64,000 nucleotides of DNA from Escherichia phage ST2, in the sequence record OM982647; one strand, written 5' to 3'. Every line of letters starts with the position of its first letter. Position 1 is the first letter of the stretch. This document shows positions 41,723 to 64,000 of the stretch, one piece after another. A program made the position numbers and the translations under genes. Under the pieces are notes generated by a model that worked only from the letters and a program-made list of their open reading frames with translations, made no database searches and was not told the DNA's origin.

Positions 41723-41723
41723 C

Positions 41724-42983: not shown

Positions 42984-42994
42984 AATATTCTCCT

Positions 42995-43045
42995 CTTGTT
43001 TTGATAGGTCTATAGTATCATAAACCAGAGGAGAAGTAAACAACT
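42995..43045 (-). promoter_or_regulatory. early promoter-like element (GTTTAC ... TACTATAGACCTATCAA)
   Basis: read on minus strand. Confidence 0.4.
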
Positions 43046-43465: not shown

Positions 43466-43474
43466 AATAATTCC

Positions 43475-43930: not shown

Positions 43931-43997
43931 AATTTCTCTCTCTCTTTGTTTAAATTTAATTCATTATACTCCAACCATCCTTGGTTGTAAACTGGTT

Positions 43998-44675: not shown

Positions 44676-44684
44676 AATTTTCTC

Positions 44685-46306: not shown

Positions 46307-46308
46307 AA

Positions 46309-47055: not shown

Positions 47056-47208
47056 AATATTTTCCTCTGTCTTACGGACGTTAAGGTCATTTAGCTGATA
47101 AGCTTATAATATCATGCCCTCAGGTAGTGTACACTCTTTTTTCATAAAATGCTTTAATTTTTTATGTGTTATAATGGTTCTGAGTTCCATCCGGTTATTC
47201 CAATTCAG

Positions 47209-47817: not shown

Positions 47818-47874
47818 TTATGTTTCTCCTGTGGTTGATAAAGATATAGTATCATCATCGGAAGAGTTTGTACA

Positions 47875-48456: not shown

Positions 48457-48487
48457 GATAGACCTCCATTTAAAGATAAGCCTATCA

Positions 48488-48524
48488 TAACACGAGAGGA
48501 GGGAATGTAAACTACTTTTTAAGC
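48488..48524 (-). promoter_or_regulatory. early promoter GTTTAC-N17-TATGATA upstream of modB-like gene
   Basis: read on minus strand. Confidence 0.45.
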
Positions 48525-48660
48525 TTTCCTACTAAAGGTCCATCAGGACCAGGTTGTTCTAACATGAATAAGGATGCTTTAAAAAGCAATGTCAACCCTT
48601 TCACCATTCGATACCATGTCTCAAAGTCTTTTTCCTTGATTTCTAGTAAGAATTTCTCTT

Positions 48661-48849
48661 TCATTTCCAAGGACTCCATGGTGGTGGGTCGTCATAATAA
48701 GAGGCAAGGTCTTTCAGGGCTTCGACAGGTAAACTAAAGCCGTGTCGTTGTATAATACTATCTAGTTCATCAACAAGTTCACTACGATGCACTTTAGGAG
48801 CCTTGACTTCAGGCTCATCAAACATACTCATCAAGTCCATATTATTCAC
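48661..48849 (-). CDS. hypothetical protein
   Basis: 62-aa ORF. Confidence 0.35.
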   Translation of the reverse strand: MNNMDLMSMFDEPEVKAPKVHRSELVDELDSIIQRHGFSLPVEALKDLASYYDDPPPWSPWK

Positions 48850-49306
48850 CGAGATAAAAACTAGCAGGTTCAGAGAACGTTTCTAGTGCTACACCTTTTG
48901 TCTTAAAAAATTTCCAAATAGCTCGTTGCAAATGGATTAAATCTGCTAATGATGTAATAAAGTATTTTTTGGCAAAATACTTGTGGTCTCGCTTTTCAAA
49001 CAAGTCTAAACGCTTTTCAGGATTCACATAAACGGCATTTTCCGTAGATTCATAACCTAAGTCCTTTATGCCTTCTTCAAGACTAAACGGAGAATTTTTA
49101 GAACGAGTAATAGCTCCAACTCGCTCTACACGAATTTTGTAACCTTTAGGAATCTGTAATTTGCAGAATTCTTCTACGATATATTGCGGATTATTTAGAC
49201 TTTTGTTAATGAGAATAGCTATTTCTAGTGGAGTCTTATCTTCCACTGGTATATGTTTAAATGACTTGGCTTCAAGCAAATACATTTTAAATAGCATAGC
49301 ATCCAT
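48842..49306 (-). CDS. hypothetical protein
   Basis: 154-aa ORF. Confidence 0.45.
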   Translation of the reverse strand: MDAMLFKMYLLEAKSFKHIPVEDKTPLEIAILINKSLNNPQYIVEEFCKLQIPKGYKIRVERVGAITRSKNSPFSLEEGIKDLGYESTENAVYVNPEKRLDLFEKRDHKYFAKKYFITSLADLIHLQRAIWKFFKTKGVALETFSEPASFYLGE

Positions 49307-49481
49307 TATAATTTCCTCGATGGTTCACCCATATAAAGTTTTACAATACGTTCGCCTTCATCTTCGACGAGCTTTTCTTCATGTTTCTGGAATTCTTTAG
49401 CCATATTCTCTTCAAGAACATCCAGCCAATCTTCTGGACCGACGCCATCATTCCAGCTTTTAAACCATTTTACTATTCTGT

Positions 49482-49682
49482 TCATTCACAGCTCCCTGAG
49501 CTTGAACCACAATCAGAATAACTTGACCCAGAATCACCAGGCCAAGACGATACGTATGAATGATTATAACTTGAAGAGTTTGAAGCATTAACATGTTTTG
49601 TTTTTGGACGAACAACTTCTTCCATCATGCCGTCACCAATGTATTCCCAACTTTTTTCGTGTGTATCAGGAATAGGCATCAT
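49482..49682 (-). CDS. hypothetical Ser-rich protein
   Basis: track ORF 49482..49805 trimmed to internal Met pair to avoid overlap with the upstream ORF. Confidence 0.3.
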   Translation of the reverse strand: MMPIPDTHEKSWEYIGDGMMEEVVRPKTKHVNASNSSSYNHSYVSSWPGDSGSSYSDCGSSSGSCE

Positions 49683-49695
49683 ACCTTCGCCAGGT

Positions 49696-49923
49696 TTAGC
49701 AGCAAACAACTTCTTCAGCATCGTAAGCATTAATTGTTCCTCGAACAAAACGAACATCGCCATCATCCCAACGAATTTCGGCATTAAATTTGACGTCTTC
49801 ACCATCCATCATGAATGAGTGTACGACTACATCATCATAATATCCAAGACCGTATTTCAACGAAACTTCTTGAGCAATCAAAGCACCTAATGTGTTATTA
49901 GGTTTAATCCAACGATTTAACAT
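49696..49923 (-). CDS. hypothetical protein
   Basis: track ORF trimmed to Met with AGAGGAG ribosome-binding site (75 aa). Confidence 0.4.
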   Translation of the reverse strand: MLNRWIKPNNTLGALIAQEVSLKYGLGYYDDVVVHSFMMDGEDVKFNAEIRWDDGDVRFVRGTINAYDAEEVVCC

Positions 49924-49999
49924 ATTGTTCTCCTCTTGAGTAAGTAAGAATATCTTAACACAGTTTTTAGTGGTTGTAAACTGTAGAAACAAAAAAAAA

Positions 50000-50017
50000 G
50001 GAATCCCGAAGGATTCC
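50000..50017 (-). terminator. terminator hairpin GGAATCCttcgGGATTCC with T9 run downstream of soc
   Basis: perfect 7-bp stem; nine A on plus strand = U-run on minus transcript. Confidence 0.55.
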
Positions 50018-50026
50018 TTAAATTAT

Positions 50027-50263
50027 TTAACCGCTTACTGGTGTAGGGGTAAACATTGCAGCATTCTTAGTTTTCCAAGTTGCTGCATCAGAAACGACAT
50101 CAGAATAAGCTGCCTTTTCTGACGGAAAGATTTGATAATGAGAATCTGCAATCCGATGTTCGTTTGAATAAATCTCAAACGGTACAGAAACTTCCATACC
50201 TTTAACTTCTTTGCCTTCACCAGCCGGACGTGTAAAGGTTTTGATATTAACGTAACCACCCAT
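50027..50263 (-). CDS. soc: small outer capsid protein Soc
   Basis: 78 aa; GYVNIKTF ... YQIFPSEKAAYS match recalled T4 Soc. Confidence 0.85.
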   Translation of the reverse strand: MGGYVNIKTFTRPAGEGKEVKGMEVSVPFEIYSNEHRIADSHYQIFPSEKAAYSDVVSDAATWKTKNAAMFTPTPVSG

Positions 50264-50308
50264 AATTAACTCCTTTGTTGTTTAATTACAGGTGTATTTA
50301 TAACTTAA

Positions 50309-50845
50309 TCAGTAACCATTATCCTGACGTTCAAAGTTGTGTTGGTTTTTCAAGTAGTAAAGTTTAAAGATTTCTTCAGCAGAAAGACCCAGACCTTGGA
50401 ACATATTTAGAACGAAATGCAGAATATCAATCATTTCAAATTTAATTTCAAGTTGGTCTTCAGGAGACAGTTCATCGATACGACGATTTCGATATTCAGC
50501 ATGTTGTGCTTTCCATGGCTTCCAAACACTGCTAGCGGCTTTCTCACCATTGCTCATACCGCCAAGTGAAGTCAACAGTTCACGGAATTCATCATCAATA
50601 TAATCTTTCTGATTACGCAGCCAATCAACAACATCGCCAGCAGTGGCCAATTCATCAGGATGTTTGTTATGTTCAGGCTTGTCATTTGCCAGACGAACCT
50701 GTAAAGATTTCTGCATATCAAGCATTACCTGCAGTGGGTCTTTATCTTCGTGAATCAGAGCATTAAAATAAGCTTCTTCTGCTTTATCAACACCAGAAAT
50801 AAGTTGTGAACATTCGTTAAAGTGTGCCATTATTTTTCCTTTCAA
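50309..50845 (-). CDS. 56: dCTP pyrophosphatase gp56 (MazG-like)
   Basis: 178 aa; position upstream of soc, size near T4 gp56 (171 aa). Confidence 0.7.
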   Translation of the reverse strand: MKGKIMAHFNECSQLISGVDKAEEAYFNALIHEDKDPLQVMLDMQKSLQVRLANDKPEHNKHPDELATAGDVVDWLRNQKDYIDDEFRELLTSLGGMSNGEKAASSVWKPWKAQHAEYRNRRIDELSPEDQLEIKFEMIDILHFVLNMFQGLGLSAEEIFKLYYLKNQHNFERQDNGY

Positions 50846-50919
50846 TTCAGTATAAGAGAGTTAATTCTAACATTAATTTTATAAAGCGTAATAAATAATA
50901 AGGTAACTAAGGAGATATT

Positions 50920-51117
50920 ATGTTTAAACTTCCATCGTTAATCAACGCTATTAAAGGCAATAAAAAGAAAACTGCTATCGCCGCAATAGTTGTAGGTGGC
51001 ATTATTTCATGGAACTTCGGTATCGCACCATTATTAGTTGCTAATGGTATTATAGTTCCTTCTGTTCCATTGGATACTGTAGTTGATTTGGCCTTTGCTT
51101 TAGTTGGGCTTGTTTAA
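50920..51117 (+). CDS. small membrane protein (two predicted TM helices), convergent with flanking genes
   Basis: 65-aa ORF with strong AAGGAG ribosome-binding site 7 nt before ATG; hydrophobic segments AIAAIVVGGIISW and VVDLAFALVGLV. Confidence 0.5.
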   Translation: MFKLPSLINAIKGNKKKTAIAAIVVGGIISWNFGIAPLLVANGIIVPSVPLDTVVDLAFALVGLV

Positions 51118-52136
51118 ATCTTAGAATAATGAGATAATCTCATTTTAGCATGCAACCCACTTGAAATATTCTGTTTCATATATTCTAAAATTTCTTGTGG
51201 TGTTGCATTTTCTTTCATTACCATATCATTCACATCCTTTGATCTCCATGGAGCTCGATCCCAGAACATGACACGTTCGCCTGCATCAACTAATCGCTTC
51301 ATACGAGCTATAGTATCCGGATGCCTAGGTTCATTATCCATTACCCATACCCGACGTTCTTTAAATGGTACCACATCTAAATCTATTGAGCCGCCTGTAA
51401 TAGCGATTGCGTTTGGTATGAATAAACTATCAATAGGACCTTCCATTACCCAGACGTCCCCTTCCTTAACACGTTCAACACCATAAATTTTTGTTGCAGA
51501 CTCAAACGCTTTAATAGTGATATATTTCTGAGGAGCATCTTTACGAAGTGCACGTCCTTGGAACGACTCGGCCTTCCCATCTTTATTAAAAATAGGAATC
51601 ACTAAACGCGGTTCAGGAATCTCTTTCTTATACGTACCCGGTTGAATCTTGTTGACCAATTTGGGCCATTCTAATGTGAACCATAATCTGTTCCATGATT
51701 CTTTAGGAATACACCGAGACTTAACATATTTCACAATAGGATGCTCTTCAGGCAACTTGTCTAGACGAGAACAAGACGGCAAAGAATTTATAGTCTTTTT
51801 CTCTGGCTCCGGTTTAGCTTCAGGAACCTTTTCAATCTTTGGTTCCATTCTAGCTTTTTCTTTACGAACTTCCATTAGATATTCGCGATAAAGCTCTTCA
51901 TCATACTCTTTTAAGTATCCGGAAATTGTATTGTGGTATTGACAGTTATAGCAATGCACATTACCAGGAGTACCGCCATAATACCATCCGCGAGCTTTCA
52001 TTGCATCTGTCTGGGAGTCGCCACAAACTGGACATCGAAATGTTAATTTAAATGTGCTTGAATTATTGATTTGTCTAAAACGAGGTAGGTGAGAAAACGC
52101 ACGATAAGCAAATTCATTATCTATCCATTCAGCCAT
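51114..52136 (-). CDS. 61: DNA primase gp61
   Basis: zinc ribbon FRCPVCGDSQTD...CYNCQYH and Toprim region; start set at internal Met (AEWIDNEFAYRA) giving 341 aa as in T4 (track ORF extends to 52172). Confidence 0.95.
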   Translation of the reverse strand: MAEWIDNEFAYRAFSHLPRFRQINNSSTFKLTFRCPVCGDSQTDAMKARGWYYGGTPGNVHCYNCQYHNTISGYLKEYDEELYREYLMEVRKEKARMEPKIEKVPEAKPEPEKKTINSLPSCSRLDKLPEEHPIVKYVKSRCIPKESWNRLWFTLEWPKLVNKIQPGTYKKEIPEPRLVIPIFNKDGKAESFQGRALRKDAPQKYITIKAFESATKIYGVERVKEGDVWVMEGPIDSLFIPNAIAITGGSIDLDVVPFKERRVWVMDNEPRHPDTIARMKRLVDAGERVMFWDRAPWRSKDVNDMVMKENATPQEILEYMKQNISSGLHAKMRLSHYSKI

Positions 52137-52176
52137 AGTATTCTCCAGAGGCCTTAAATTAATAAGGCCCATCTTA

Positions 52177-52671
52177 TCACAACTTATTAATATTTACTTT
52201 AATTCGCTTTCTTTTCTTGGAAGGAATTTGTTCGGGACCTTTATTTACGACTGCACCTGTAGTTGTTCCTGATGCAATAGCTTGAGGGCTGCCACCTGAA
52301 TCGCCAGCAACCATATCCTCAAATAAAGGGAGCTCTTTAAATATTTCTTTCTGTTGTTCTTCCGTAATGTTATAGCGTGAAGCTACAGCACTCCAGGCAG
52401 ACATCATTGAGGCCATTCCATTAAGACCCGGAACAGTGCTCATCATTCGCTTCATTGAACGAACTGAAGCATGAAAAGGTGTATACGCCGCTTTTTCTTC
52501 GGGAGTAGAAGGACGTTTAAGAACACTTCCACGTTCATCGATGATTTTGGCGTCGTATGCTTTCCATTCGGTAAAAGGTTTTTGCATTAGTCGAATAAAC
52601 TTATATGCGTAAACAGAATCTATTGCAGTGTTAATAATACCCATAGGTACCTCCTGAGTATATTTAATCAA
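52177..52671 (-). CDS. hypothetical protein (61.1-like position)
   Basis: 164-aa ORF with basic C-terminus. Confidence 0.45.
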   Translation of the reverse strand: MIKYTQEVPMGIINTAIDSVYAYKFIRLMQKPFTEWKAYDAKIIDERGSVLKRPSTPEEKAAYTPFHASVRSMKRMMSTVPGLNGMASMMSAWSAVASRYNITEEQQKEIFKELPLFEDMVAGDSGGSPQAIASGTTTGAVVNKGPEQIPSKKRKRIKVNINKL

Positions 52672-52861
52672 TTACAAAGATTGCTTTGTCACCATTTATA
52701 TCTGTGACTTCATACGTAGTGCCTTCATACTGTGGAATATTCCAAATTACACCATCATTAGCTTTTACGCTAATATGGCATTGGTGTTTTGAAACAACTT
52801 CATAATCTTCAAAACTTGTAAAAACACTAATTTTAGAACCAGTGCAAATTGCAGTAGTCAT
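52664..52861 (-). CDS. hypothetical small protein
   Basis: 65-aa ORF. Confidence 0.35.
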   Translation of the reverse strand: MTTAICTGSKISVFTSFEDYEVVSKHQCHISVKANDGVIWNIPQYEGTTYEVTDINGDKAIFVID

Positions 52862-52862
52862 T

Positions 52863-53522
52863 TTAACCTCGATTCATAAATGCATTAAATATTTGGTCAT
52901 CAACAGAAATTTCTAATTCGACTTCAATTGCTTCGGCCTTTTCTTCAGGTGGTAATTCGTATCCACACACTACAATTTTTTCATCAATATCAAAATATAC
53001 AGAAGCAATACGATTAATGTTATTTTCGGTTAAGTCCAAATCAACATCAACATCTTTTTGACCTACACTTAAAGGATAACTAATACGGGTTATTTTATTA
53101 TCTTTAACAAAGAGTCCACCAACATACTCTGTACTACGTTTGAAGTCTACACGTTTCCGAAATGAAAGATATGATGCATCTTTACCGTGAGCTCGGCTCA
53201 TAGGACATAATGAATAGCTAGAATAAGAGATGTCAAATCCTACACCTTCAATATGAGCCAACGTGTCATGGTTAAACCAATTATAATCATATGCCAAATC
53301 CATTAAATTATAATATGTGAAAGGCACTGGATTAACATCGTACGTTGTACCTTTAAAATCTGCCCAGGCAACGATTTCGTTATCTTTAACAATTACAAAA
53401 ATTACACCAAGATGGTATCCGTTATTATTTTCATTCGGCGTTATATTATAACATTGTGCATTAGGAAATTTACCATATTTAAATGGTGCGTTTTTGTGCA
53501 TGTAATAAATCATATTATTCAC
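52863..53522 (-). CDS. hypothetical protein (61.2-like position)
   Basis: 219-aa ORF. Confidence 0.45.
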   Translation of the reverse strand: MNNMIYYMHKNAPFKYGKFPNAQCYNITPNENNNGYHLGVIFVIVKDNEIVAWADFKGTTYDVNPVPFTYYNLMDLAYDYNWFNHDTLAHIEGVGFDISYSSYSLCPMSRAHGKDASYLSFRKRVDFKRSTEYVGGLFVKDNKITRISYPLSVGQKDVDVDLDLTENNINRIASVYFDIDEKIVVCGYELPPEEKAEAIEVELEISVDDQIFNAFMNRG

Positions 53523-53808
53523 CTGTGATTTCGGTTACGATATCTTTGTTATCGAAATTAGGGTCACAATACAAGACATAGTTGTACTGCATGATACCGC
53601 CGGACTTAAGTTGGTCAACAACTTTATTAACCATATTAGGACGGTCTCGTTTAGTGATGTTCATGATATCAGAGAAGATTTGTTGTTCAACATCTTCTTG
53701 ATTTGCAGTCATTGACCACTCACAGAGGTCTTTATCATAACCTGCCGTAACTGGAGCTGGTGCACATGATACTGCAAGTAAGATTGCTGCCAATGATAAC
53801 TTTTTCAT
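53515..53808 (-). CDS. secreted periplasmic protein, Spackle-like (superinfection exclusion candidate)
   Basis: 97 aa with N-terminal signal peptide MKKLSLAAILLAVSCAPAPVTA; position matches T4 sp (61.3); size matches. Confidence 0.45.
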   Translation of the reverse strand: MKKLSLAAILLAVSCAPAPVTAGYDKDLCEWSMTANQEDVEQQIFSDIMNITKRDRPNMVNKVVDQLKSGGIMQYNYVLYCDPNFDNKDIVTEITGE

Positions 53809-53834
53809 TTTAGCTCCTTAGTTGATTTGATAGG

Positions 53835-53869
53835 ACTACTATACTATAGTCCATCTATAATGTAAACAA
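53835..53869 (-). promoter_or_regulatory. early promoter-like element (GTTTAC ... TATAGT) with GGACTA/TAGTCC inverted repeat
   Basis: read on minus strand upstream of the Spackle-like gene. Confidence 0.35.
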
Positions 53870-53871
53870 GT

Positions 53872-54120
53872 TTATTCTTTTTCGCTAATAATAATTACTT
53901 GTTGAGGCGGCTGAGCAGATTTCTTTTCGGCAACGATAGACCAAATTAAAGTTCCAATCCAACCGACCATCGTCCAGTTAAAGAGTAAAGATACAAAGAA
54001 GATTGCTGTTGTGCTTTTTGTGCCACGAATAAGTGCGATTACCCAAGGCAACATGTAAATGATGATTGAACCAATACCTGCAATTAAAACTGCTACTGAA
54101 CTAGCTACGAATAATTCCAT
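53872..54120 (-). CDS. small integral membrane protein (two TM helices)
   Basis: 82 aa; hydrophobic segments VAVLIAGIGSIIIYMLPWVIALI and AIFFVSLLFNWTMVGWIGTLIWSI. Confidence 0.45.
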   Translation of the reverse strand: MELFVASSVAVLIAGIGSIIIYMLPWVIALIRGTKSTTAIFFVSLLFNWTMVGWIGTLIWSIVAEKKSAQPPQQVIIISEKE

Positions 54121-54181
54121 GTTAATTTCCTCTTGATTTGTTATGTTTATAATATCTTGTTTTAACTTTGGCGTAAACCAA

Positions 54182-54550
54182 TTAATTAAATTTGTTTAAA
54201 CGTTCAATACACTGGATGTAGTTATTCGCGATTTGTTTCTGGGTAGGCTCTTTACCAGTTGTTTCAACATAGCGAATGAATGCGATTTCAGTAGCCTGTA
54301 AACAATGCTCTTTAACACGTTGTTCTTTTGTCATAGCTACAGTATCAGAATCACGATAACGTTGAGCATGAGCATCAGCTTGAATCATTCGATTACCTAC
54401 AGTAACCGGGTCTTCCACTTCAACTTTAGGTTGGTCATATTGTTTAACATTCGGATTGTAAATCAGTTGGCCAACGTTATTAGGGATAAAGCCATGAGCA
54501 CCACATCCGGTTAATCCGAATACCATTGCTAAAGCGATTAATTTTTTCAT
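54182..54550 (-). CDS. lipoprotein (signal peptide + lipobox LTGC)
   Basis: 122 aa; MKKLIALAMVFGLTGC... Confidence 0.5.
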   Translation of the reverse strand: MKKLIALAMVFGLTGCGAHGFIPNNVGQLIYNPNVKQYDQPKVEVEDPVTVGNRMIQADAHAQRYRDSDTVAMTKEQRVKEHCLQATEIAFIRYVETTGKEPTQKQIANNYIQCIERLNKFN

Positions 54551-54620
54551 TTCAATTTCCTCTGTAGTTGATAAAAAGATAGTAACACAGTATGTGGTGC
54601 TTGTAAACAGTTATTTAAAA

Positions 54621-54830
54621 TTATCGAAAATCTGCTTCGAAAACTTTCTCGTCATTAACAAATGCTTTAACCAGTGCACTGTTCACTTCAGCAAGTTGTA
54701 CCGCAACCCACTCGATTTCTTCACGGTCGCCTGATAACATGATATCTTTAGTGAACATCTCACCACTTTTAAACCAACCGATAAAAGTAACTTTAGTTAA
54801 TTTGCTCATATTTCCTCGCAAAATGCCCAT
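54621..54830 (-). CDS. hypothetical small protein (dmd/61.5-like position)
   Basis: 69-aa ORF (probably starting at an internal Met, about 62 aa) adjacent to the helicase-proximal end of the 61.x array. Confidence 0.3.
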   Translation of the reverse strand: MGILRGNMSKLTKVTFIGWFKSGEMFTKDIMLSGDREEIEWVAVQLAEVNSALVKAFVNDEKVFEADFR

Positions 54831-55123
54831 TCAGCGTGATAAACTGTAGCGCCTTTAGTATCATTCATTTGAACTACATCTACCGGAGAAATTACTCGAT
54901 AGAGACGTGGTTCACCTCCATAAGAGCGTGCTGCTCGTCCTGCATAAATCTTTGCTAAACCGATATCTTCAGTAAAGAATACACGATTCAGGTTTTTCTT
55001 ACGTCCAGTTTCAGACAGAACTCCTGTTTCCTCAGGAGGACAAAGCATGTTTTCGATGTTAGCTGAACTGCTTGAACCGTGATAAAAAATCTTAAATTCT
55101 GCTTTACAATCGATGGTTTTCAT
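54806..55123 (-). CDS. hypothetical protein
   Basis: 105-aa ORF with own early promoter. Confidence 0.4.
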   Translation of the reverse strand: MKTIDCKAEFKIFYHGSSSSANIENMLCPPEETGVLSETGRKKNLNRVFFTEDIGLAKIYAGRAARSYGGEPRLYRVISPVDVVQMNDTKGATVYHAEWAFCEEI

Positions 55124-55145
55124 TTTGTTCTCCAGTAGTTGATAG

Positions 55146-55180
55146 GTCTATAATAACACAACTACTGGAGAAGTAAACTT
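55146..55180 (-). promoter_or_regulatory. early promoter GTTTAC-N17-TATTATA flanked by 10-bp inverted repeat CCAGTAGTTG/CAACTACTGG
   Basis: seen directly. Confidence 0.4.
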
Positions 55181-55553
55181 AAAAACGTAATTTAGATACG
55201 TCTGCGTTGATTTCGTTTTGGTTTGCATCGTACGCAATTAAACGAACCGCTTTAGATGGGTCATTCAATGCATAGAAATGATGGAACATTGCTCGAACGA
55301 TATCACCATTTACGAGTTCTACTTGGATAGGAGAACCTTTTTCGAGTTGGAAATGTTCATAAGCTTTGATGGTTCGTAGATAATCAAGTTTTTGATTTCC
55401 AGCTCCAACTATTTGTACGATACGTTTGCCCATGTTTTCCATACGAGATACAATAGTTTTAGGAGCAAGAATAACGTAGGTTGCCAGCGGAGAAACTACT
55501 TCAACAGTTGTGTTTTCGGTGATTGCAGTAAAAATTGCTTGAGACATATTCAT
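55179..55553 (-). CDS. hypothetical protein
   Basis: 124-aa ORF. Confidence 0.4.
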   Translation of the reverse strand: MNMSQAIFTAITENTTVEVVSPLATYVILAPKTIVSRMENMGKRIVQIVGAGNQKLDYLRTIKAYEHFQLEKGSPIQVELVNGDIVRAMFHHFYALNDPSKAVRLIAYDANQNEINADVSKLRF

Positions 55554-55619
55554 AATGTTTTCCTCTTGGTTAGTGTAAGTACATCATATCATGCCTAGAG
55601 GAAGATGTAAACCCCGAAA

Positions 55620-55635
55620 GGAGACCGAAGTCTCC
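55620..55635 (-). terminator. terminator hairpin GGAGACttcgGTCTCC + U-run downstream of gene 41
   Basis: perfect stem; TTTTTATTA follows on plus strand, another complementary segment precedes. Confidence 0.5.
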
Positions 55636-55641
55636 TTTTTA

Positions 55642-57084
55642 TTAAAATTTTAACTCATTGGCTAAGCTATCTAGGTCAGCACGTGTTGCTTTGGCTTTAC
55701 CTACGCGTTCCGTACGATTCACCTCTGCCTGACGCATCTGAGCACCTGCGTTTTCATTTACTGTGTTAGGTGTGTTCATGCCTTCTTGCTCAATCTCAAT
55801 CCATTTCTGGTTGCCTTTACGTACACCCATCAGGAATTTATTCCACTTATTCTTATCGCCGTATCGTGATTTGATTTGTTTGATAAGTTGTTGTTCAGCT
55901 TGTGCAAGTTCTTCGGTTTCAATTACAGCCAACATGAAATCTGCCGTTGCTGGTAAACCTGCTGATTCTGCAATATCACTCATGTTCATATCCGAAGCAT
56001 CCCATGCTGCACGTCCTACTTGAGCTGCAGTCCATAGAACTGTTTCAGATTCTACTGCTAATGCACGAAGTTCTTCTGCGATAGCTTTAACTAATGTGTA
56101 GCTATTTTCAGTGTAAACTCTGATACGACAAGACCCACAAATACCTAAGTAATCAACCATGATTACAGATGGCACAAAGTTCTTCTTGAGTTTCAATTCA
56201 TTAAGCAATGCACGGAATGTATTAGCATTAGCTCCGCCAGTAGGATACTGTTTAACTACTAAACGTCCTAATGTGGATTTTGAACGCCATTTTTCCATCT
56301 TGGCTTTATATTCGGCATAAGATACGTTACCATCATCGATATCATCAAGTGATACGTCAAGCATGTTTGCATCTATACGCTTAGCACAAACTTCTTCAGC
56401 CATTTCCATGGAAATATAAAGAACGTTATGACCTGTTTGAAGATAATCTGCAGCAAGTGAACAAAGGCCTAAAGATTTACCAACGTTAACACCGGCCATT
56501 AAAACATTCAGTGTACCGGTTTCAGCACCACCTTTAGTGATTTTATTCAGAATGTTTAATTTGAACGGGACCTTACGTGCTTTATTTAGATAAGAAAGCC
56601 AGCGTGCTTCGTAGTCTTCCATCCAGTCATGTCCAACATAACTATCAAACGAAATTGAAAGTGCTTGACGCATAATATCAGGAATAGCTCCTACATCAGG
56701 CATTTTCTTGTTACGTTGTTCTGGAGGTAGTTCAGCATTAGACTGAATCTCAATGATTTTGGATGTAGCATTATACATCGCTTTTTGCTGGACATATTTC
56801 TCAGTTTCTTTAACCAACCATTCATGGTCTTCAGGAGTATCAGCCAATTTTTCAATTAGGTCTGAAGTTCCTTTATATTCGGCTTCAGTTAAAGAACTGT
56901 TATCTAAAGCCACCTTTAATGCATTGATAGATGGCATTGCATTATATTCGTTAACGTGGCTCTTTATAATTTTAAAGACATTTTTTGCCGGTCCACGCTC
57001 AAAATACTCAGAATCCATATAAGGCCAGACCTTAGAAAAATAAGCCTGGTCGTATACTAGATGAGACAAAATAATTTCTACCAC
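55642..57084 (-). CDS. 41: replicative DNA helicase gp41 (DnaB-like)
   Basis: 480 aa; Walker A GVNVGKS, RecA-like helicase domain; T4 position. Confidence 0.95.
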   Translation of the reverse strand: MVEIILSHLVYDQAYFSKVWPYMDSEYFERGPAKNVFKIIKSHVNEYNAMPSINALKVALDNSSLTEAEYKGTSDLIEKLADTPEDHEWLVKETEKYVQQKAMYNATSKIIEIQSNAELPPEQRNKKMPDVGAIPDIMRQALSISFDSYVGHDWMEDYEARWLSYLNKARKVPFKLNILNKITKGGAETGTLNVLMAGVNVGKSLGLCSLAADYLQTGHNVLYISMEMAEEVCAKRIDANMLDVSLDDIDDGNVSYAEYKAKMEKWRSKSTLGRLVVKQYPTGGANANTFRALLNELKLKKNFVPSVIMVDYLGICGSCRIRVYTENSYTLVKAIAEELRALAVESETVLWTAAQVGRAAWDASDMNMSDIAESAGLPATADFMLAVIETEELAQAEQQLIKQIKSRYGDKNKWNKFLMGVRKGNQKWIEIEQEGMNTPNTVNENAGAQMRQAEVNRTERVGKAKATRADLDSLANELKF

Positions 57085-57093
57085 GATAACTCC

Positions 57094-57456
57094 TTAAAAG
57101 AATTTAAATTTTTTCTTGGTTCGTTCATTAAAAGCTTGTTGTACTTGCATTGTAACACATTTTTCAACATGCTGTGCAAGTTCTGCTTTTCTGTCCTGGT
57201 CAAGAACTGCAAAGTCCATTACGATTTTACCATCAACCCAGTCTAGTTTTGTAATATAGACTATATGATGGGAACCGTCTTCAAGTGTAATCAGAATCTC
57301 TTGAATGACATTTTCCATTGCTGAACGGATAATTTTAAGAGATTCATTAAACACTCGTTCTTTGCGAATGTCTTCCCCTTCCGAAGAAGGGGATTCATCA
57401 ACGATTTCTATATTTAAATCATCGAGATTATTCATCGAAATCTTCCATTTCGTCAA
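57094..57456 (-). CDS. 40: gp40-like head vertex assembly protein
   Basis: 120-aa ORF between 41 and uvsX, as gene 40 in T4. Confidence 0.5.
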   Translation of the reverse strand: MTKWKISMNNLDDLNIEIVDESPSSEGEDIRKERVFNESLKIIRSAMENVIQEILITLEDGSHHIVYITKLDWVDGKIVMDFAVLDQDRKAELAQHVEKCVTMQVQQAFNERTKKKFKFF

Positions 57457-58600
57457 GGTCGTTTTCTATATCTGCTGCAGATGGAGCATCAGAAGTTTTA
57501 ACCGGAACTTTAGTTGTTGCTTTGCAATTAATAAGGTCGTTAACAGCGTCATCAACTTCTTTAATAGAAGAGATAGCACCTAGTTTATATTTAGTTTCAA
57601 TTGCATCTCGGAAAGGTTTGTGTTTAAACAAAGGTCCCCAGAATTCTACACAATCAGTAGCTTTAGCACGCCATGATTTTTCTTCACGAATCATTTCACC
57701 TGTTTCTTCGTCAAGGAATTCACGAGCATACCAACCGGCTTTAGGCTTAACTACAAAACCAATTTCAGTTGCCATTTCTAGCAAGCCGCTGAATGGGTCG
57801 ATACCACCATCAAAATTAACTGTGATTGGGAAAGTAGATTTTTCTTTAACTGTACGAGATTTTTCTGCTTTCAACGTGAAGTCATAACCGGTCAATTCTG
57901 TACCTTCTTTAACCTGACGTTTAGAGATAAAGAATACAGTGTTAGCAGAGTAAAGAATACCTGTACCACCACCCATAATCTCTTTAGGATATAGTCCGCC
58001 GATTTCCATTGCTGTATGGTTGATTGCAACACACGGAATATCTTTAATAGTCAGATAAGGAGTCACAATACGGAACAGAGATTTAAGTGCCTTAGCACGA
58101 GACATATCACCTACGACTTTCTCGTTCAATGCATCTTCGGTTTCTTTCTTAGATGCAGTATTACCGATCGAGTCAATAAAGATAATAACTTTATCACCGC
58201 GTTCAATAGCGTCAAGCTGATTAGTCATATCAACTTTAAGTTGTTCGACAGATTGAATCGGAGTATGAACTACACGGTCTAAATCAACACCCATCGAACG
58301 GAAGTAAGATTCTGAAGCACCGAATTCTGAGTCATAAAACAAACAGATTGCATCTTTATATTTCTTCATATACGCTGCAACCATAGTCAGCCCAAACAAC
58401 GTTTTAAAGTGTTTAGAAGGAGCAGCAAAAATAGTTAAGCCTGATTGCAACCCTGCATTCAGTGCACCACCTAATGCAATATTCAACATCGGAATACGAG
58501 TAGGGACTTCATCACGATTATTAAACAGCTTAGACTTAGTCAAGTCTGCAGTCATTTTAGAAGTAGAAGCTTTAATCAGACGAGATTTTAAATCAGACAT
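57428..58600 (-). CDS. uvsX: UvsX recombinase (RecA-like)
   Basis: 390 aa; RecA fold motifs (FAAPSKHFKT, IFIDSIGN) and length of T4 UvsX (391 aa). Confidence 0.95.
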   Translation of the reverse strand: MSDLKSRLIKASTSKMTADLTKSKLFNNRDEVPTRIPMLNIALGGALNAGLQSGLTIFAAPSKHFKTLFGLTMVAAYMKKYKDAICLFYDSEFGASESYFRSMGVDLDRVVHTPIQSVEQLKVDMTNQLDAIERGDKVIIFIDSIGNTASKKETEDALNEKVVGDMSRAKALKSLFRIVTPYLTIKDIPCVAINHTAMEIGGLYPKEIMGGGTGILYSANTVFFISKRQVKEGTELTGYDFTLKAEKSRTVKEKSTFPITVNFDGGIDPFSGLLEMATEIGFVVKPKAGWYAREFLDEETGEMIREEKSWRAKATDCVEFWGPLFKHKPFRDAIETKYKLGAISSIKEVDDAVNDLINCKATTKVPVKTSDAPSAADIENDLDEMEDFDE

Positions 58601-58698
58601 TGTATTTTTCCATAGGCATCATTATATTTTACTCATGTTTAAAAGATAAGACGATTATATACTAAGGGTTATACAGCATTTAAAACTTTAAATGGCTC

Positions 58699-59247
58699 TT
58701 AACGAGCCCATTTGATGATTTCTGTAATCAAACCATTACGTTCGCTTGCATTAAATCCTATAACTTTGTTAGCACCATCATGATTAAGTAATTGATACGT
58801 TTGGATTTTGTTATGAATTGCAAACTCTTCAAAATGTGAAATGACTGTATTAAAACCGAATGAAGACAAAGTAATAAGGTCGTCTTCAAAACTTTCAGTC
58901 ATTTCGTTACGTGTTAAAATAATTGTGAACACATCATGGTTTTGGCAAAGACGAACATAATCCTGTTCATAAACGTCAAGAACAGAGTCCGCATCTTGTC
59001 GAATACGTCCGTAAACCCAGTTACTAATATATCCACGATCTAACAGATAAATCTTAGTAGGGTCTAAATAATTCAACATCGTTTCGAAACAGCCAACTTC
59101 GTTTCGAGACTTAACATCGAAACGTCCATCAACTGTTCGTTTAGGGAAATCAATCTTTACATATCTTTCACTAATTTCCATTATGTCATTAATGAAAGTT
59201 GTTTTACCAGCATTATCCGGGCCATCTACTAAAATAATTTTAGCCAT
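58699..59247 (-). CDS. P-loop NTPase / nucleotide-kinase-like protein at the T4 bgt locus
   Basis: 182 aa; Walker A ILVDGPDNAGKTT at residues 5-17; small size typical of (d)NMP or sugar kinases; no similarity to T4 beta-glucosyltransferase. Confidence 0.55.
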   Translation of the reverse strand: MAKIILVDGPDNAGKTTFINDIMEISERYVKIDFPKRTVDGRFDVKSRNEVGCFETMLNYLDPTKIYLLDRGYISNWVYGRIRQDADSVLDVYEQDYVRLCQNHDVFTIILTRNEMTESFEDDLITLSSFGFNTVISHFEEFAIHNKIQTYQLLNHDGANKVIGFNASERNGLITEIIKWAR

Positions 59248-59248
59248 T

Positions 59249-60148
59249 TTATTCCTCGATTACGACATCTTCATATTTAGGTATATTATACGGTGAAGAA
59301 ATTAAAGCATTAAAGTAGATGAACTCACCAAGACCTGGATGGAATACTTCTTCAGGATTTTCGAAATATTGAATCTTCGGACGTCCTTTAAGAATTTGAT
59401 AGTACTCAGTTTTAGTTGGATTAAAAATTCGAATCAGCGCTTCTTCAGGATACTTATTTCTGTCGAAACTATTATTTGGATCAGTTATATAAAGCGGTTG
59501 ACCTAATTGAATTGCACATTCAACCACTTGTTCAAAACGATAGCACGGGTCACTAATTCGAAATGGATGAAAAATACCATCTAGATGAATAGGAGCCAAA
59601 TCACCTACAAGACGCTGCATGATGGAAGGACGTATAACTTTCTGCGTTACGATAATCTTATTACCATCTGCACCGGCGTTAACCAGCACTTCTTTTTGAC
59701 GTTCATTCAACACAGTAGTTTGAAGTGAACGATTAACCGACAACATATCGGTTTTTAAGAATTCATCAATATAAAAACGTGGTTTATTAGGGTCTGCAGT
59801 GATATTGAAATTGAATTCTACATCAAAAGCACCATCATATCCAGTGATATCTGTGATTAGAAAATCACAATCATAATAAGCAATTAATGAATCAACCACA
59901 AATTCATTTTCAGACCAGAAATATTTACGAGTGTTATACGCGTTATCTTTATACCATAATGGAACAAACTTAAATTCTGGGAAAAGACGTTCACATTCTT
60001 TAATATCAGATGCATTACGTGGATATGTAATCACATCACCTGGATTAGCACGGTGCAAATGAAGTTGGAAGTTGCCATCCTTAAGGATAGCATACTGTCC
60101 AGTTTCATAAGACCGCATACTCAAAATAGGTACGCGGAAAATAGCCAT
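59249..60148 (-). CDS. hypothetical protein, translationally coupled upstream partner of the P-loop protein
   Basis: 299-aa ORF ending 1 nt before the next start; AT-rich T4-like composition; its 5' flank is the abrupt junction with T7-like sequence. Confidence 0.5.
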   Translation of the reverse strand: MAIFRVPILSMRSYETGQYAILKDGNFQLHLHRANPGDVITYPRNASDIKECERLFPEFKFVPLWYKDNAYNTRKYFWSENEFVVDSLIAYYDCDFLITDITGYDGAFDVEFNFNITADPNKPRFYIDEFLKTDMLSVNRSLQTTVLNERQKEVLVNAGADGNKIIVTQKVIRPSIMQRLVGDLAPIHLDGIFHPFRISDPCYRFEQVVECAIQLGQPLYITDPNNSFDRNKYPEEALIRIFNPTKTEYYQILKGRPKIQYFENPEEVFHPGLGEFIYFNALISSPYNIPKYEDVVIEE

Positions 60149-60151
60149 TAG

Positions 60152-60259
60152 TCAAAGCTGCGGAGTTCGGCGTTCCTCGCTCTGGAGGTCAGCAAGCATA
60201 CGCTGTGCCATCTCCGTATCCAGCATCTCCAGCAGCTTGATTAAAGTCTTGTCGCTCAT
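60152..60259 (-). pseudogene. T7-like gene 18 (terminase small subunit) N-terminal fragment, truncated at the chimeric junction
   Basis: MSDKTLIKLLEMLDTEMAQRMLADLQSEERRTPQL then stop; preceded by AGGAGT ribosome-binding site; follows the holin gene as in T7. Confidence 0.5.
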
Positions 60260-60262: not shown

Positions 60263-60466
60263 TTACTCCTTATTTGCACGTTTCCAGTCAATAATCTTAT
60301 CGACTACCTTGGCACCAATCTGAACCACTGTGTAGGCGATAGCTGCAACGTAGAACCATTCGTTGAGTGACAGACCCCAAAAGAGCCTTGCCACACCATC
60401 AGCGCCAGCCACGCCAGCAATCGGTGCAGCCTTTACGATTTCATTGTTAAAATCCAACGACAACAT
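60263..60466 (-). CDS. T7-like class II holin (gene 17.5)
   Basis: 67 aa; MLSLDFNNEIVKAAPIAGV...LSLNEWFYVAAIAYTVVQIGAKVVDKIIDWKRANKE closely matches recalled T7 gp17.5. Confidence 0.85.
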   Translation of the reverse strand: MLSLDFNNEIVKAAPIAGVAGADGVARLFWGLSLNEWFYVAAIAYTVVQIGAKVVDKIIDWKRANKE

Positions 60467-60503: not shown

Positions 60504-60890
60504 TTAATCCATGTTCTTAAGTTCAGCTAAGAGAGCCTTGAGGTCTTTCTCAATATCCTCTTTGGTTCTCGCATTGACTTCTTCTGGTTTCCTATAGAAC
60601 TTGGAGCCATCCCATAGAACAGTCCCAAGCGGTAAGTCTTCTGGATAAGAGTCCGTAACGATTACATCACCGTGTTCATATGGGGCATAGATGCCATTAA
60701 CGCTTCCCTTAGTGAACCAAGTAACATGACCAGACTCTTGTGTCCCAACCACGTATTTCTCGTCCCTATCGTCCAGTTCAGCCATCAGTTCATACCAATC
60801 TGTACCATCAGAACTCTTTACATCATAGAACTTAGTTCCAGTTTCAGGGTCGGAAACAACCTTAAACTCCCACTTCATGTATTTTCTCAT
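60504..60890 (-). CDS. hypothetical protein in T7-like block
   Basis: 128-aa ORF with AAGGAG ribosome-binding site between tail-fibre remnant and holin. Confidence 0.45.
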   Translation of the reverse strand: MRKYMKWEFKVVSDPETGTKFYDVKSSDGTDWYELMAELDDRDEKYVVGTQESGHVTWFTKGSVNGIYAPYEHGDVIVTDSYPEDLPLGTVLWDGSKFYRKPEEVNARTKEDIEKDLKALLAELKNMD

Positions 60891-60911: not shown

Positions 60912-61620
60912 TCATTCAGTGACCGCCAATCGTCGAGTACCATTCATTGATACACTCCACAGCGGTGAATAGTAAGCGCCGTTAACGCCATGCCCTTGGT
61001 TAAGGTTTAGTCCTTGCAGAATGTGACCAGCGGGAGGGATGGCATCGTACCAACCACCCGGAATTGTAGTCATACTGCGTGCACCAATAACAAGGTTAGT
61101 CGTGAAGTTAGTCTTGCACCAAGTCGTCAAGAAGCCACCATACGCAGACCCCCGGATGTCACCATCACGAGTTAGAGAGAAACCTCTAGACACACTGATT
61201 GCGCCATTATAGTTGAAGTCAAACTGTGCCTCATCCTGTCCACTATTAAATACCCAAAGTCTAGCCAATGGCAGATTAGTAGAGCCTCCGCGAACACCAC
61301 CCAGCTTCCACCAGCAGTCGTACCAGTCACCATTAACAGCGTTAATGAAAGTCCCTTCACCACCAGTGTCCGTAATGAGCCTCATCTCGTTCCTTTCTGT
61401 TCCACCGATATAAACAGTGTGTGAGGTAAGTCCGTCCTTTGGTTTAGAGCGGAAAGCGCCATCGAATGTGTGAGCAGGTGCTTTATAGTCGATACCTACA
61501 GGTGCAACGGCGATTTCTGTTGAGCCGTGTCGAAGGCGCGTGTTTGTGCCAAAATCCACAGAACCACCGTTTCGTCTAGCCAATTGCTCTGGAGACAGAG
61601 CCGGGTGCCGTTGTGTTGCC
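60912..61620 (-). pseudogene. C-terminal portion of a podovirus tail-fibre-like protein (5'-truncated)
   Basis: Gly/Asn/Thr-rich beta-type sequence upstream of the holin in a gene 17-like position; N-terminal codons of the track ORF run into antisense of the gp16 fragment. Confidence 0.35.
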
Positions 61621-61633
61621 TCAAGGTCAAATC

Positions 61634-62992
61634 CTGAGCGACACCAACCCACTGAACCCTCAGACTCTTAGCGAGTTCGAGGCGGTCAACCCTGAGCGTG
61701 CCGCGCGTGGTATCTCTTTGAGTGGTTTCACTGAGATTGGCTTGAAGACTCTCCGCTCTGAGAACCCGACTGTTCGCTCCATTGCAAGTGACCTTGTGCG
61801 TTCTCCAACAGGGATGGAATCAGGCTCTAATGGTAAGTTCGGTGCGACAGCTTCTGACATTAAGGAGCGACTCCATGCGAACAACCAGCGCACCTACAAT
61901 CAGCTTTATGATGCTGTGCGTACTGCAATGAAAGACCCTGAGTTCTCCACAGGTGGTGCCACAATGAGCCGTAAGGAAATCCGACAGGAAATCTACAAGC
62001 GTGCAGCCTTGGCGATTGAGCGACCTGAGCTTCAAGCAAACCTGACAAAGGGTGAGCGGAACGTGATGAACATCCTCAAGCAGCACTTTGACCTCAAACG
62101 TGAAATCATGGAGAACCCGTCAATCTTCGGCAACACCAAGGCGGTCAGCATCTTCCCCGGCTCACGCCACAAGGGAACCTACGTGCCAAACGTGTACGAC
62201 CGCGCTATCAAGATTGAGATGGTTAAACGTTACGGTAATGATGGCTTGCAGCGAGCAATCGCGGAGTCATGGTTGACGTCTTATCGTGCTCGTCCAGAAG
62301 TCAAGGCGAGGGTCGATGAGTACCTGATGGAACTTAACGGTCTCAAATCCGTGCAGGAAGTTACGCCTGAGATGGTGCAGAAGCACGCGATGGATAAGGC
62401 GTATGGTATTTCACACACTGACCAGTTCTCTGCCTCCTCTGTCATTGATGATAAACTTGAGGGTCTGACGGGTATCGAGAACAACAACTTCTTGGAAGCC
62501 CGTAACATGTTCGACAGTGACATGGCGGTGACTCTCCCTGATGGTAACACGTTCTCTGTGAATGACCTGCGTACCTATGACATGGCTGACATTCTGCCTG
62601 CATATGACCGCCGAGTTGATGGGGATGTTGCAATCATGGGTGGTTCCGGTAAGACTACCAAAGACCTGAAAGATGAAATCATGGCGCTGGATGCGCAGTC
62701 AGAGGGCAACGGCACATTGAAAGGTGAAGTGGAAGCTCTCAAGGACACCGTGAAGATTCTGACTGGTCGTGCTCGTAGGAACCCGGAAGGCGCTTGGGGC
62801 ACAGCCCTGCGCTCCGTCAATGACCTTACGTTCTTCGCTAAGAACGCCTACATGGGTGCGCAGAACCTTACTGAAATCGCTGGTATGCTGGCGAAAGGTA
62901 ACGTCTCTGCGATAACTCATGGCATCCCTATGATTAACGATTGGGTCAACCGTGGTAAACCGCTTCGTGCCTCTGAGATTAATACGTCATAG
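61634..62992 (+). pseudogene. internal fragment of T7-like gp16 (internal virion protein D), truncated at both ends
   Basis: NPLNPQTLSEFEAVNPERAARGI...VRSPTGMESGSNGKFGATASDI...AIMGGSGKTTKDLKDEI...FFAKNAYMGAQNLTEIAG matches the middle of recalled T7 gp16; no lytic-transglycosylase N-terminus or C-terminus. Confidence 0.8.
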
Positions 62993-63817: not shown

Positions 63818-63989
63818 TTTTCTTTACTCCTTTCTTAGTCTTAAATTTATCGAACGGAACCTCCTTCTTGGGTTCTTTGAGCCACTCCACCGGAATTAGC
63901 TTGTCAGCAAACAGAATGCCATGCTTCTCACACCACTCGGCGTAGCTTGTCGGACTACCCTTGTAGAGCTTTGAGCGGCTGCTTGTGCT
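63810..63989 (-). pseudogene. T7-like endonuclease I (gene 3) C-terminal fragment
   Basis: KLYKGSPTSY..CEKHGI.FADKLIP.EW.KEPKKEVPFD matches T7 gp3 C-terminus; overlaps gene 3.5 start; in-frame TAG at about 63990..63992 then window ends. Confidence 0.6.
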
Positions 63990-64000
63990 CTAGTTTCTAC

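What the first reader, a model, noticed from the sequence alone, without database searches (positions are those of the whole stretch)
60140..60165. Abrupt junction between T4-like genome and T7/T3-like sequence: chimeric contig
Up to about 60148 the sequence is AT-rich T4-like with T4 synteny; immediately beyond, a T7-like terminase-small-subunit N-terminus (35 codons) ends in a stop codon that abuts the start codon of the T4-like 299-aa ORF, whose normal upstream region (including a recognisable ribosome-binding site) is missing. A myovirus/podovirus join at single-nucleotide resolution inside gene starts is far more likely a misassembly, cloning artefact or engineered join than natural recombination.
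Basis: seen in the sequence. Interest (0 to 1): 0.6.

Follow-up and report, generated by a model that had tools for sequence, protein, structure and literature searches.

The report
Artefactual join of two phage genomes
A 60-kb stretch of an RB69-like (T4-type) phage genome stops dead and is followed by at least four unlinked, truncated DNA pieces placed end to end (three from a T3-like phage, then T4-like DNA again), which is the signature of separate sequences stuck together rather than of a real hybrid virus.

Summary
The junction is real in the sequence but lies at 60154/60155, not at the start codon. Homology to every Mosigvirus (RB69-like) reference ends at 60155, 7 nt upstream of the ATG of the 299-aa ORF. 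Teetrevirus (T3-like) homology starts at 60154, inside codon 35/36 of gene 18. GC jumps from 37.8% to 49.6%.

The others are at 61586/87, 62982/83 and 63985/86.

The pieces are:
- 1431 nt (−): gene 18 start, holin, tail-fibre assembly gene, tail-fibre C-terminus.
- 1396 nt (+): the middle of gp16.
- 1003 nt (−): primase start, amidase, endonuclease I end.
- The last 15 nt: an inverted exact copy of window 6094–6108, which is T4-like.

The pieces are unlinked on a T3-like genome, mixed in orientation and cut inside genes. They share only 0–2 nt at the joins, which is chance level, and they fall in descending length.

The junction is absent from all six collections searched. Ten independent contigs carrying the identical 299-aa protein all have gene 42 upstream.

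Verdict: a non-biological concatenation of unlinked fragments from a two-phage mixture, most likely length-sorted contigs joined without spacers. Interest is low, beyond quality control.

The parts
1..60155 (.). Collinear Mosigvirus (RB69-like, T4-type) genome segment. It runs off the left edge of the window.
   Evidence: The segment is collinear with NBG1 at 89-97% identity, apart from the variable tail-fibre region. It is 98.1% identical to PhAPEC2 over 44000-60155. Window 1-125 is 100% identical to HY126 and 99.2% to RB69 at 132491.
59249..60148 (-). 299-aa Mosigvirus ORF of unknown function, the last intact T4-like gene before the join.
   Evidence: It is listed as an ORF and matches phrog_3891 at E=1.5e-155 with no Pfam hit. 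An identical protein occurs on at least 23 public contigs; the 10 shown all have gene 42 directly upstream.
60149..60155 (-). Remnant of gene 42 (dCMP hydroxymethylase): its last two sense codons (partial) and its TAA stop, which overlaps the ATG at 60148.
   Evidence: Nucleotide alignment to NBG1 and the NBG1 annotation, in which gene 42 ends where the 299-aa ORF starts.
60154..60155 (.). Junction 1. 'AA' is shared by both parents, T4-like to the left and T3-like to the right.
   Evidence: Three-way alignment of the window against NBG1, CT02 and phiYeO3-12.
60152..60259 (-). Truncated gene 18 (small terminase): 35 codons plus a TGA stop created by the join.
   Evidence: It is listed as an ORF and hits PF11123 at E=1.1e-4. 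It aligns to CT02 677-782 and to phiYeO3-12 gene 18. Natural gene 18 is 88 aa.
60263..60466 (-). Intact T7-family class II holin (gene 17.5).
   Evidence: It hits PF10746 at E=2.7e-32. An identical protein lies on ENA contig k141_1199778, next to a full-length gene 18.
60504..60890 (-). 128-aa ORF, a probable tail-fibre assembly protein of the T3-like phage.
   Evidence: It matches phrog_136 (tail fiber assembly protein) at E=2.7e-7. It is 42-47% identical to ORFs lying directly after the tail-fibre gene in phages N30, C5, Pila and ZCEA1. ViciousJeremy has the same gene order.
60912..61586 (-). C-terminal fragment of a tail-fibre gene (gene 17), cut at its 5' side by junction 2.
   Evidence: tblastn gives about 30% identity to the tail-fibre C-termini of N30, Pila and others. 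The apparent 246-aa ORF reads on into antisense gp16 for its first 22 residues.
61586..61587 (.). Junction 2, between the tail-fibre fragment (-) and the gp16 fragment (+).
   Evidence: gp16 homology starts at 61587.
61587..62982 (+). Internal fragment of gene 16 (internal virion protein D / transglycosylase), roughly codons 465-930 of 1320, lacking both ends.
   Evidence: It is 98.5% identical to CT02 34832-36227 without gaps. The CT02 gp16 CDS spans 33439-37401.
62982..62983 (.). Junction 3, with one shared 'A'.
   Evidence: Alignment of the window against CT02 gp16, CT02 gene 4 and phage 066044.
62983..63985 (-). T3-like fragment holding the first 67 codons of gene 4 primase (62983-63183), a T3-type promoter (63229-63251), the intact gene 3.5 amidase (63362-63817) and the 3' end of gene 3 endonuclease I (63810-63985).
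   Evidence: It is 99.7% identical to Klebsiella phage 066044 and 99.5% to ViciousJeremy 14069-13066. Pfam hits are Zn_Ribbon_Prim and Amidase_2, and the promoter match is.
63985..63986 (.). Junction 4, with no shared base.
   Evidence: Homology to 066044 ends at 63985.
63986..64000 (-). Start of a fifth piece: an exact inverted copy of window 6094-6108 (T4-like Rz/spanin region).
   Evidence: The 15-mer matches exactly, where about 1e-4 chance matches are expected. It is also present in NBG1.

Best explanation
The join at 60154/60155 is not a biological recombination point. It is where a Mosigvirus (RB69-like) sequence ends and the first of a series of unrelated short sequences has been placed directly after it.

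The sample evidently held two phages: a dominant T4-type phage, and a minor T3-type Teetrevirus with an unusual tail fibre. The minor phage was recovered only as pieces of about 1-1.4 kb.

The most likely mechanism is that separate assembler contigs, listed by decreasing length, were concatenated into one string without spacers. This could have happened in the deposited record or in whatever process built the scanned sequence. The order would be a large T4-like contig, then 1431, 1396 and 1003 nt T3-like contigs, then a still shorter T4-like contig.

Shown: the four breakpoints, the parental origin and orientation of each piece, the absence of overlap, and the absence of the junction elsewhere. 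Inferred: that the concatenation was done in silico rather than by ligation of DNA fragments in a library.
For: (1) All T4-like references stop aligning at 60155 and all T3-like references start at 60154.

(2) There are three further joins, at 61586/87, 62982/83 and 63985/86.

(3) On a single Teetrevirus genome (ViciousJeremy) the pieces map to 38121→~36.7 kb (-), 32995-34390 (+) and 14069-13066 (-). They are therefore unlinked and in mixed orientation.

(4) Every join cuts inside a gene: gene 42, gene 18, gene 17, gene 16 at both ends, gene 4 and gene 3. The joins create spurious read-through ORFs of 35, 246, 459 and 98 aa.

(5) The bases shared at the joins number 2, 1 and 0. A blind join is expected to share about 0.67, so no homology drove the joining (the expectation is my own calculation).

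(6) The piece lengths, 1431 > 1396 > 1003, all following a block of over 60 kb, are in strictly descending order, and the smallest sits near a typical 1-kb contig cut-off.

(7) The fifth piece is T4-like again and inverted.

(8) The junction 24/30-mer is absent from IMG/VR, JGI metagenomes and GTDB genomes. The junction region is absent from E. coli complete genomes and PLSDB. No INPHARED record spans it.

(9) All 10 contigs shown that carry the identical 299-aa protein have gene 42 upstream. Natural T3-like contigs carry a full 88-aa gene 18.

(10) The sequence quality is that of a consensus: alignments are gap-free at 98.5-99.7% and the ORFs are intact, so this is not a raw chimeric long read.
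Against: There are no reads, coverage data or record metadata, so the step that made the joins cannot be observed.

Descending order of three pieces has a 1-in-6 chance of arising at random.

A small T4-like contig that duplicates a region already present in the main contig is not expected from a clean single-strain assembly. It would need a variant or bubble contig, or a second T4-like strain.

Physical ligation of fragments in a library would give the same blunt joins with no homology.
Confidence: 0.9

Rival explanations
1. Physical chimera made in vitro. Sheared or degraded DNA fragments from a mixed T4-like and T3-like lysate were blunt-ligated to each other during library preparation (ligation-based long-read or shotgun cloning). 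A chimeric molecule then extended the end of the T4-like contig and was later polished.
For: The joins are blunt, share only 0-2 nt and carry no filler bases. Orientation is random, and both phages contribute pieces, including an inverted T4-like piece. There are no adaptor sequences between pieces, as expected for direct fragment-to-fragment ligation.
Against: Base accuracy is at consensus level, with no indels over 1.0-1.4 kb pieces, so it would need polishing of a tail supported by a single read. A fragment of over 60 kb ligated to several fragments of about 1 kb is an unusual size mix. The descending order of sizes would be a coincidence (1 in 6).
Confidence: 0.25
2. Assembler misjoin. A de Bruijn-graph or overlap assembler wrongly connected T4-like and T3-like paths through a shared repeat.
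For: A mixed-phage sample is the classic setting for chimeric contigs.
Against: Such misjoins need a shared k-mer or overlap of at least about 20-30 nt at the junction, and here only 2, 1 and 0 nt are shared. No terminal k-mers of 6 nt or more are shared between the pieces. Four consecutive misjoins without any repeat are not credible.
Confidence: 0.04
3. Natural recombinant. During co-infection, fragments of T3-like DNA (cytosine DNA cut by the T4-type nucleases) were joined by illegitimate recombination to replicating T4-like DNA and packaged by the headful mechanism.
For: Both phages plausibly share an enterobacterial host and a sewage origin. T4-type phages are known from the literature to fragment cytosine-containing DNA. 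The blunt, homology-free joins do not exclude end joining.
Against: All T3-like genes at the joins are truncated and nothing functional is gained. Several unlinked fragments in tandem plus an inverted T4 duplicate would need at least four independent illegitimate events on one molecule. No other genome or metagenome contig carries the junction, and ten of ten independent contigs keep gene 42. Such a rare molecule would not dominate a consensus assembly.
Confidence: 0.03
4. Deliberately engineered T4-type phage carrying T3 payload genes.
Against: No complete payload is delivered. Gene 18, gene 17, gene 16, gene 4 and gene 3 are all cut. The only intact genes (holin, tail-fibre assembly gene, amidase) sit in scrambled order without a designed promoter or ribosome-binding-site context. 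There are no vector, marker, adaptor or cloning-primer motifs. The 299-aa ORF loses its natural upstream region.
Confidence: 0.01

Closest known systems
Concatenated multi-contig assemblies (pseudomolecules) and contaminated phage genome records
   Same: A dominant genome is followed by short, unlinked pieces of a second organism. The pieces are cut inside genes, lie in random orientation, share no overlap at the joins and fall in descending size. The record BEU50 (OM632671, 193 kb, flagged UNVERIFIED_ORG) shows that mixed Mosigvirus records do exist in GenBank.
   Different: There are no N spacers between the pieces. BEU50 itself is a different case, with two T4-like genomes and no T3-like DNA.
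Mosigvirus genomes (RB69, PhAPEC2, NBG1, JS09)
   Same: Window 1-60155 is collinear with them at 89-98% identity. [quoted passage not shown]
   Different: In all of them gene 42 follows the 299-aa ORF. Here the sequence switches to T3-like DNA 7 nt beyond the ATG.
Teetrevirus (T3-like) genomes such as ViciousJeremy, 066044, CT02 and phiYeO3-12
   Same: The pieces are 85-99.7% identical in DNA, and gene content and local order within each piece match, including tail fibre, assembly protein, holin and gene 18.
   Different: The pieces are scrambled relative to the genome map. The tail-fibre C-terminus and its assembly protein are only about 30-47% identical to any known phage protein.
Natural phage mosaicism (module exchange)
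   Same: Sequences of different ancestry lie side by side.
   Different: Natural mosaic joints lie at gene or domain boundaries or in short conserved sequences, preserve function and recur in relatives. None of these applies here.

Membership tests
In-silico concatenation / contig pile artefact | Homology to each parent ends at the same nucleotide in all references. | tested here: met
   The T4-like side ends at 60155 in NBG1, ten Logan/ENA/NCBI contigs and BEU50. The T3-like side starts at 60154 in CT02, phiYeO3-12, ViciousJeremy and L017.
In-silico concatenation / contig pile artefact | Several consecutive unlinked pieces in arbitrary orientation, cutting genes. | tested here: met
   There are four junctions. 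The pieces map to 38.1-36.7 kb (-), 33.0-34.4 kb (+) and 14.1-13.1 kb (-) of a Teetrevirus, followed by inverted T4-like DNA.
In-silico concatenation / contig pile artefact | Pieces ordered by length, as an assembler outputs them. | tested here: met
   A block of over 60155 nt is followed by 1431, 1396 and 1003 nt. This is weak evidence on its own, because three pieces fall in this order by chance 1 time in 6.
In-silico concatenation / contig pile artefact | No reads or read pairs span the joins. | not testable with these tools
   No read data are available.
Graph or overlap assembler chimera | A shared repeat of at least k-mer length at the junction. | tested here: not met
   Only 2, 1 and 0 nt are shared, and the pieces share no terminal k-mers of 6 nt or more.
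Natural inter-phage recombinant (mosaic genome) | The junction recurs in independent isolates or metagenomes. | tested here: not met
   The exact junction is absent from IMG/VR, JGI metagenomes and GTDB genomes. There is no match in E. coli genomes or PLSDB, and no INPHARED record spans it.
Natural inter-phage recombinant (mosaic genome) | The joint preserves intact, functional genes or modules. | tested here: not met
   Genes 42, 18, 17, 16, 4 and 3 are truncated, and the 299-aa ORF loses its upstream region.
Engineered construct | Complete expression cassette, marker, vector, scar or designed sites at the joins. | tested here: not met
   There are no adaptor, vector or primer motifs and no filler bases. 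I saw no common restriction site when I inspected the junction sequences.
Ligation or amplification chimera (physical, in vitro) | Blunt joins with 0 to a few nt of microhomology between fragments of the DNA pool. | tested here: inconclusive
   The join anatomy fits, but it fits in-silico concatenation equally well. Raw reads are needed to tell the two apart.

The most novel reading that the evidence does not exclude
The sequence is a true single DNA molecule: a T4-type phage genome that captured several nuclease-generated fragments of a co-infecting T3-type phage, plus an inverted piece of itself, by homology-independent end joining, and packaged them by the headful mechanism. That would be direct evidence of cross-family DNA scavenging during co-infection.
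Probability: 0.03. Interest if true: 0.6.

Novelty: not a real feature. Interest (0 to 1): 0.1.

Why it matters
The main value is for quality control. If taken at face value, the record would suggest a myovirus/podovirus hybrid. It would also yield four spurious chimeric ORFs (35, 246, 459 and 98 aa) and inflate the genome length.

It also shows that the source sample held a second, unsequenced Teetrevirus. Its tail-fibre tip and assembly protein are only distantly related (30-47%) to known ones. That is a modest but real by-product.

There is no biological mechanism to learn from the junction itself unless it is shown to exist on a physical molecule.

Tried and rejected
(1) I looked for the source or any sibling carrying the junction. 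Exact junction 30-mer and 24-mer searches in IMG/VR, JGI metagenomes and GTDB genomes found nothing, and megablast of the junction region against E. coli complete genomes and PLSDB gave no match.

(2) Exact-protein look-ups of the junction-made 35-aa ORF and of the 128-aa ORF were not on record.

(3) I suspected that BEU50 (193 kb, UNVERIFIED_ORG) might be the same kind of T4+T3 pile. It has no T3-like DNA, and its excess length comes from a second T4-like genome. This was a dead end for the present join.

(4) I suspected a further junction at the left edge, because window 1-116 does not align to NBG1 or BEU50. I rejected this: window 1-125 is 99-100% identical to HY126, PhAPEC2 and RB69.

(5) I suspected that 60528-61586, which has no DNA match, was more patchwork. 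I rejected this: the order tail-fibre C-terminus then assembly-protein homologue is natural in N30, Pila, ZCEA1 and ViciousJeremy.

(6) I searched for adaptor, vector and primer motifs and for shared terminal k-mers between pieces, and found none.

(7) One literature search for T4/T7 hybrid precedent failed on a syntax limit and I did not repeat it.

Full report
**What is in the sequence**

Window 1-60155 is a collinear stretch of a Mosigvirus (RB69-like, T4-type) genome. It aligns end to end with phage NBG1 at 89-97% identity, apart from the hypervariable distal tail-fibre genes. It is 98.1% identical to PhAPEC2 over 44000-60155. Its first 125 nt are 99-100% identical to HY126, PhAPEC2 and RB69, so the T4-like block continues beyond the left edge of the window.

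The last intact T4-like gene is the 299-aa ORF at 59249-60148 on the minus strand. It matches phrog_3891, a family of unknown function.

**The flagged junction**

Every T4-like reference stops aligning at exactly 60155. This holds for NBG1, ten contigs from Logan, ENA and NCBI, BEU50 and 244 INPHARED records. That is 7 nt beyond the ATG. Those 7 nt are the end of gene 42 (dCMP hydroxymethylase), whose TAA stop overlaps the ATG in natural genomes.

Teetrevirus (T3-like) homology starts at 60154, inside codon 35/36 of gene 18, the small terminase. Two bases (AA) are common to both parents.

The TGA that ends the 35-codon ORF is a product of the join. The T3 parent reads ...CTT TAC AAC..., and the window reads ...CTT TGA.

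GC rises from 0.378 to 0.496, with the likelihood change point at 60128-60156.

The T3-like sequence is not one block.

- Piece 1 (60156-61586, minus strand, 1431 nt) holds the gene 18 start, an intact holin (PF10746), a 128-aa tail-fibre-assembly-like ORF (phrog_136) and a tail-fibre C-terminal fragment. This internal order is natural in N30, Pila, ZCEA1 and ViciousJeremy.
- At 61586/87 the sequence jumps to piece 2 (61587-62982, plus strand, 1396 nt). This is an internal part of gene 16, 98.5% identical to CT02 and lacking both ends of the gene.
- At 62982/83 it jumps to piece 3 (62983-63985, minus strand, 1003 nt). This holds the first 67 codons of the primase, a T3-type promoter, the intact amidase and the end of endonuclease I. 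It is 99.7% identical to Klebsiella phage 066044.
- At 63985/86 homology ends again. The last 15 nt of the window are an exact inverted copy of window 6094-6108, which is T4-like spanin-region sequence. About 1e-4 chance matches are expected.

On one Teetrevirus map (ViciousJeremy) the three pieces lie at 38.1→36.7 kb (−), 33.0-34.4 kb (+) and 14.1→13.1 kb (−).

**Anatomy of the joins**

There are no filler bases and no adaptor, vector or primer motifs. I saw no common restriction site on inspecting the junction sequences.

The bases shared by both parents number 2, 1 and 0 at the three joins where both parents are known. A blind join is expected to share about 0.67, by my own calculation: two geometric tails with p = 1/4. 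Neither homology nor microhomology drove the joining.

Each join cuts a gene. Together they create spurious read-through ORFs of 35, 246, 459 and 98 aa. The first 22 residues of the '246-aa ORF' are antisense gp16.

**Is it found anywhere else?**

No. The exact junction is absent from IMG/VR, JGI metagenomes and GTDB genomes. The junction region has no match in E. coli complete genomes or PLSDB. No INPHARED record spans it.

The identical 299-aa protein is on at least 23 public contigs. In all ten shown, gene 42 lies directly upstream with the one-base overlap. The one contig with an identical holin has a full-length gene 18 beside it.

**Mechanism**

The simplest account is a sample containing two phages: a dominant Mosigvirus and a minor Teetrevirus recovered only as 1-1.4 kb pieces. 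Their separate sequences were then placed end to end.

The pieces follow a block of over 60 kb and fall in strictly descending length (1431, 1396, 1003), close to a usual 1-kb cut-off. This is the order in which assemblers list contigs. I therefore favour concatenation of a length-sorted contig list without spacers, either in the deposited record or in whatever built the scanned string.

The order alone is weak evidence, with a 1-in-6 chance for three pieces. The inverted T4-like fifth piece also needs a small variant or bubble contig to explain it.

A physical ligation chimera made during library preparation fits the join anatomy equally well. It is less easy to reconcile with the gap-free, consensus-quality sequence and with the size order.

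A graph or overlap misassembly is effectively excluded by the lack of any shared k-mer.

An engineered construct is excluded by the absence of any complete cassette or scar.

A natural recombinant would need at least four illegitimate events on one molecule, with no functional gain and no recurrence. I give it about 3%.

**Comparison with known things**

The left part is an ordinary member of Mosigvirus. It includes the RB69-specific gene module between the polymerase and uvsX genes discussed by Thomas et al. 2018 (PMC6024577).

The right part consists of ordinary Teetrevirus fragments. The exception is a divergent tail-fibre tip and assembly protein, 30-47% identical to the nearest known proteins.

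The join itself belongs with contaminated or concatenated records. BEU50 (193 kb, UNVERIFIED_ORG) shows that such mixed Mosigvirus records exist, although it is a different mixture with no T3-like DNA.

**Verdict**

It is not a real biological feature. Interest is low, apart from flagging the record for curation and noting an unsequenced Teetrevirus in the sample. Read mapping or PCR across the four joins would settle the residual doubt.

Noticed in passing
window 63986-64000 and 6094-6108: The last 15 nt of the window are an exact reverse complement of window 6094-6108 (T4-like Rz/spanin region). After three T3-like pieces the sequence therefore returns to T4-like DNA, inverted and duplicated. 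Only 15 nt are visible, so its length and identity cannot be judged.
   Followed up: partly
window 60504-61586 (-): The T3-like phage carries a tail-fibre C-terminal domain and a 128-aa tail-fibre assembly-like protein that are only about 30-47% identical to the nearest phage proteins (N30, C5, Pila). They have no DNA-level match in INPHARED. This points to an unsequenced Teetrevirus with a different receptor specificity.
   Followed up: partly
window 59249-60148 and 58699-59247 (-): The 299-aa ORF (phrog_3891, unknown function, no Pfam hit) and the adjacent 182-aa ORF (phrog_761, thymidylate-kinase-like) occupy the slot where T4 has beta-glucosyltransferase. They belong to the RB69-specific module between the polymerase and uvsX genes that has been linked to arabinosyl-hmC DNA (PMC6024577). 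Their roles are uncharacterised.
   Followed up: partly
window 23598-27471, especially 25751-27500: This is the only GC-rich patch (0.45-0.50) inside the T4-like part. It coincides with the distal tail-fibre region that does not align to NBG1. It is probably a divergent gp37/gp38 adhesin region, not foreign contamination, but I did not examine it.
   Followed up: no
window 60912-61652 (-), 61613-62992 (+), 62917-63213 (-), 60152-60259 (-): Four open reading frames run across or are terminated by the joins, at 246, 459, 98 and 35 aa. Automatic annotation would call them as genes, but they are chimeric artefacts.
   Followed up: yes
L019-L022 (OM632671.1, Escherichia phage BEU50): This 193-kb Mosigvirus record is flagged UNVERIFIED_ORG. 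Parts of the window match it twice, at 93-96% and at 75-78% identity, so the record mixes two T4-like genomes. It has no T3-like DNA.
   Followed up: partly
window 63229-63251 (-): A T3-type phage RNA polymerase promoter (AATTAACACTCACTAAAGGGAGA) lies upstream of the primase fragment. Short matches to other promoter copies occur in CT02 and ViciousJeremy. It is a natural feature of piece 3.
   Followed up: yes
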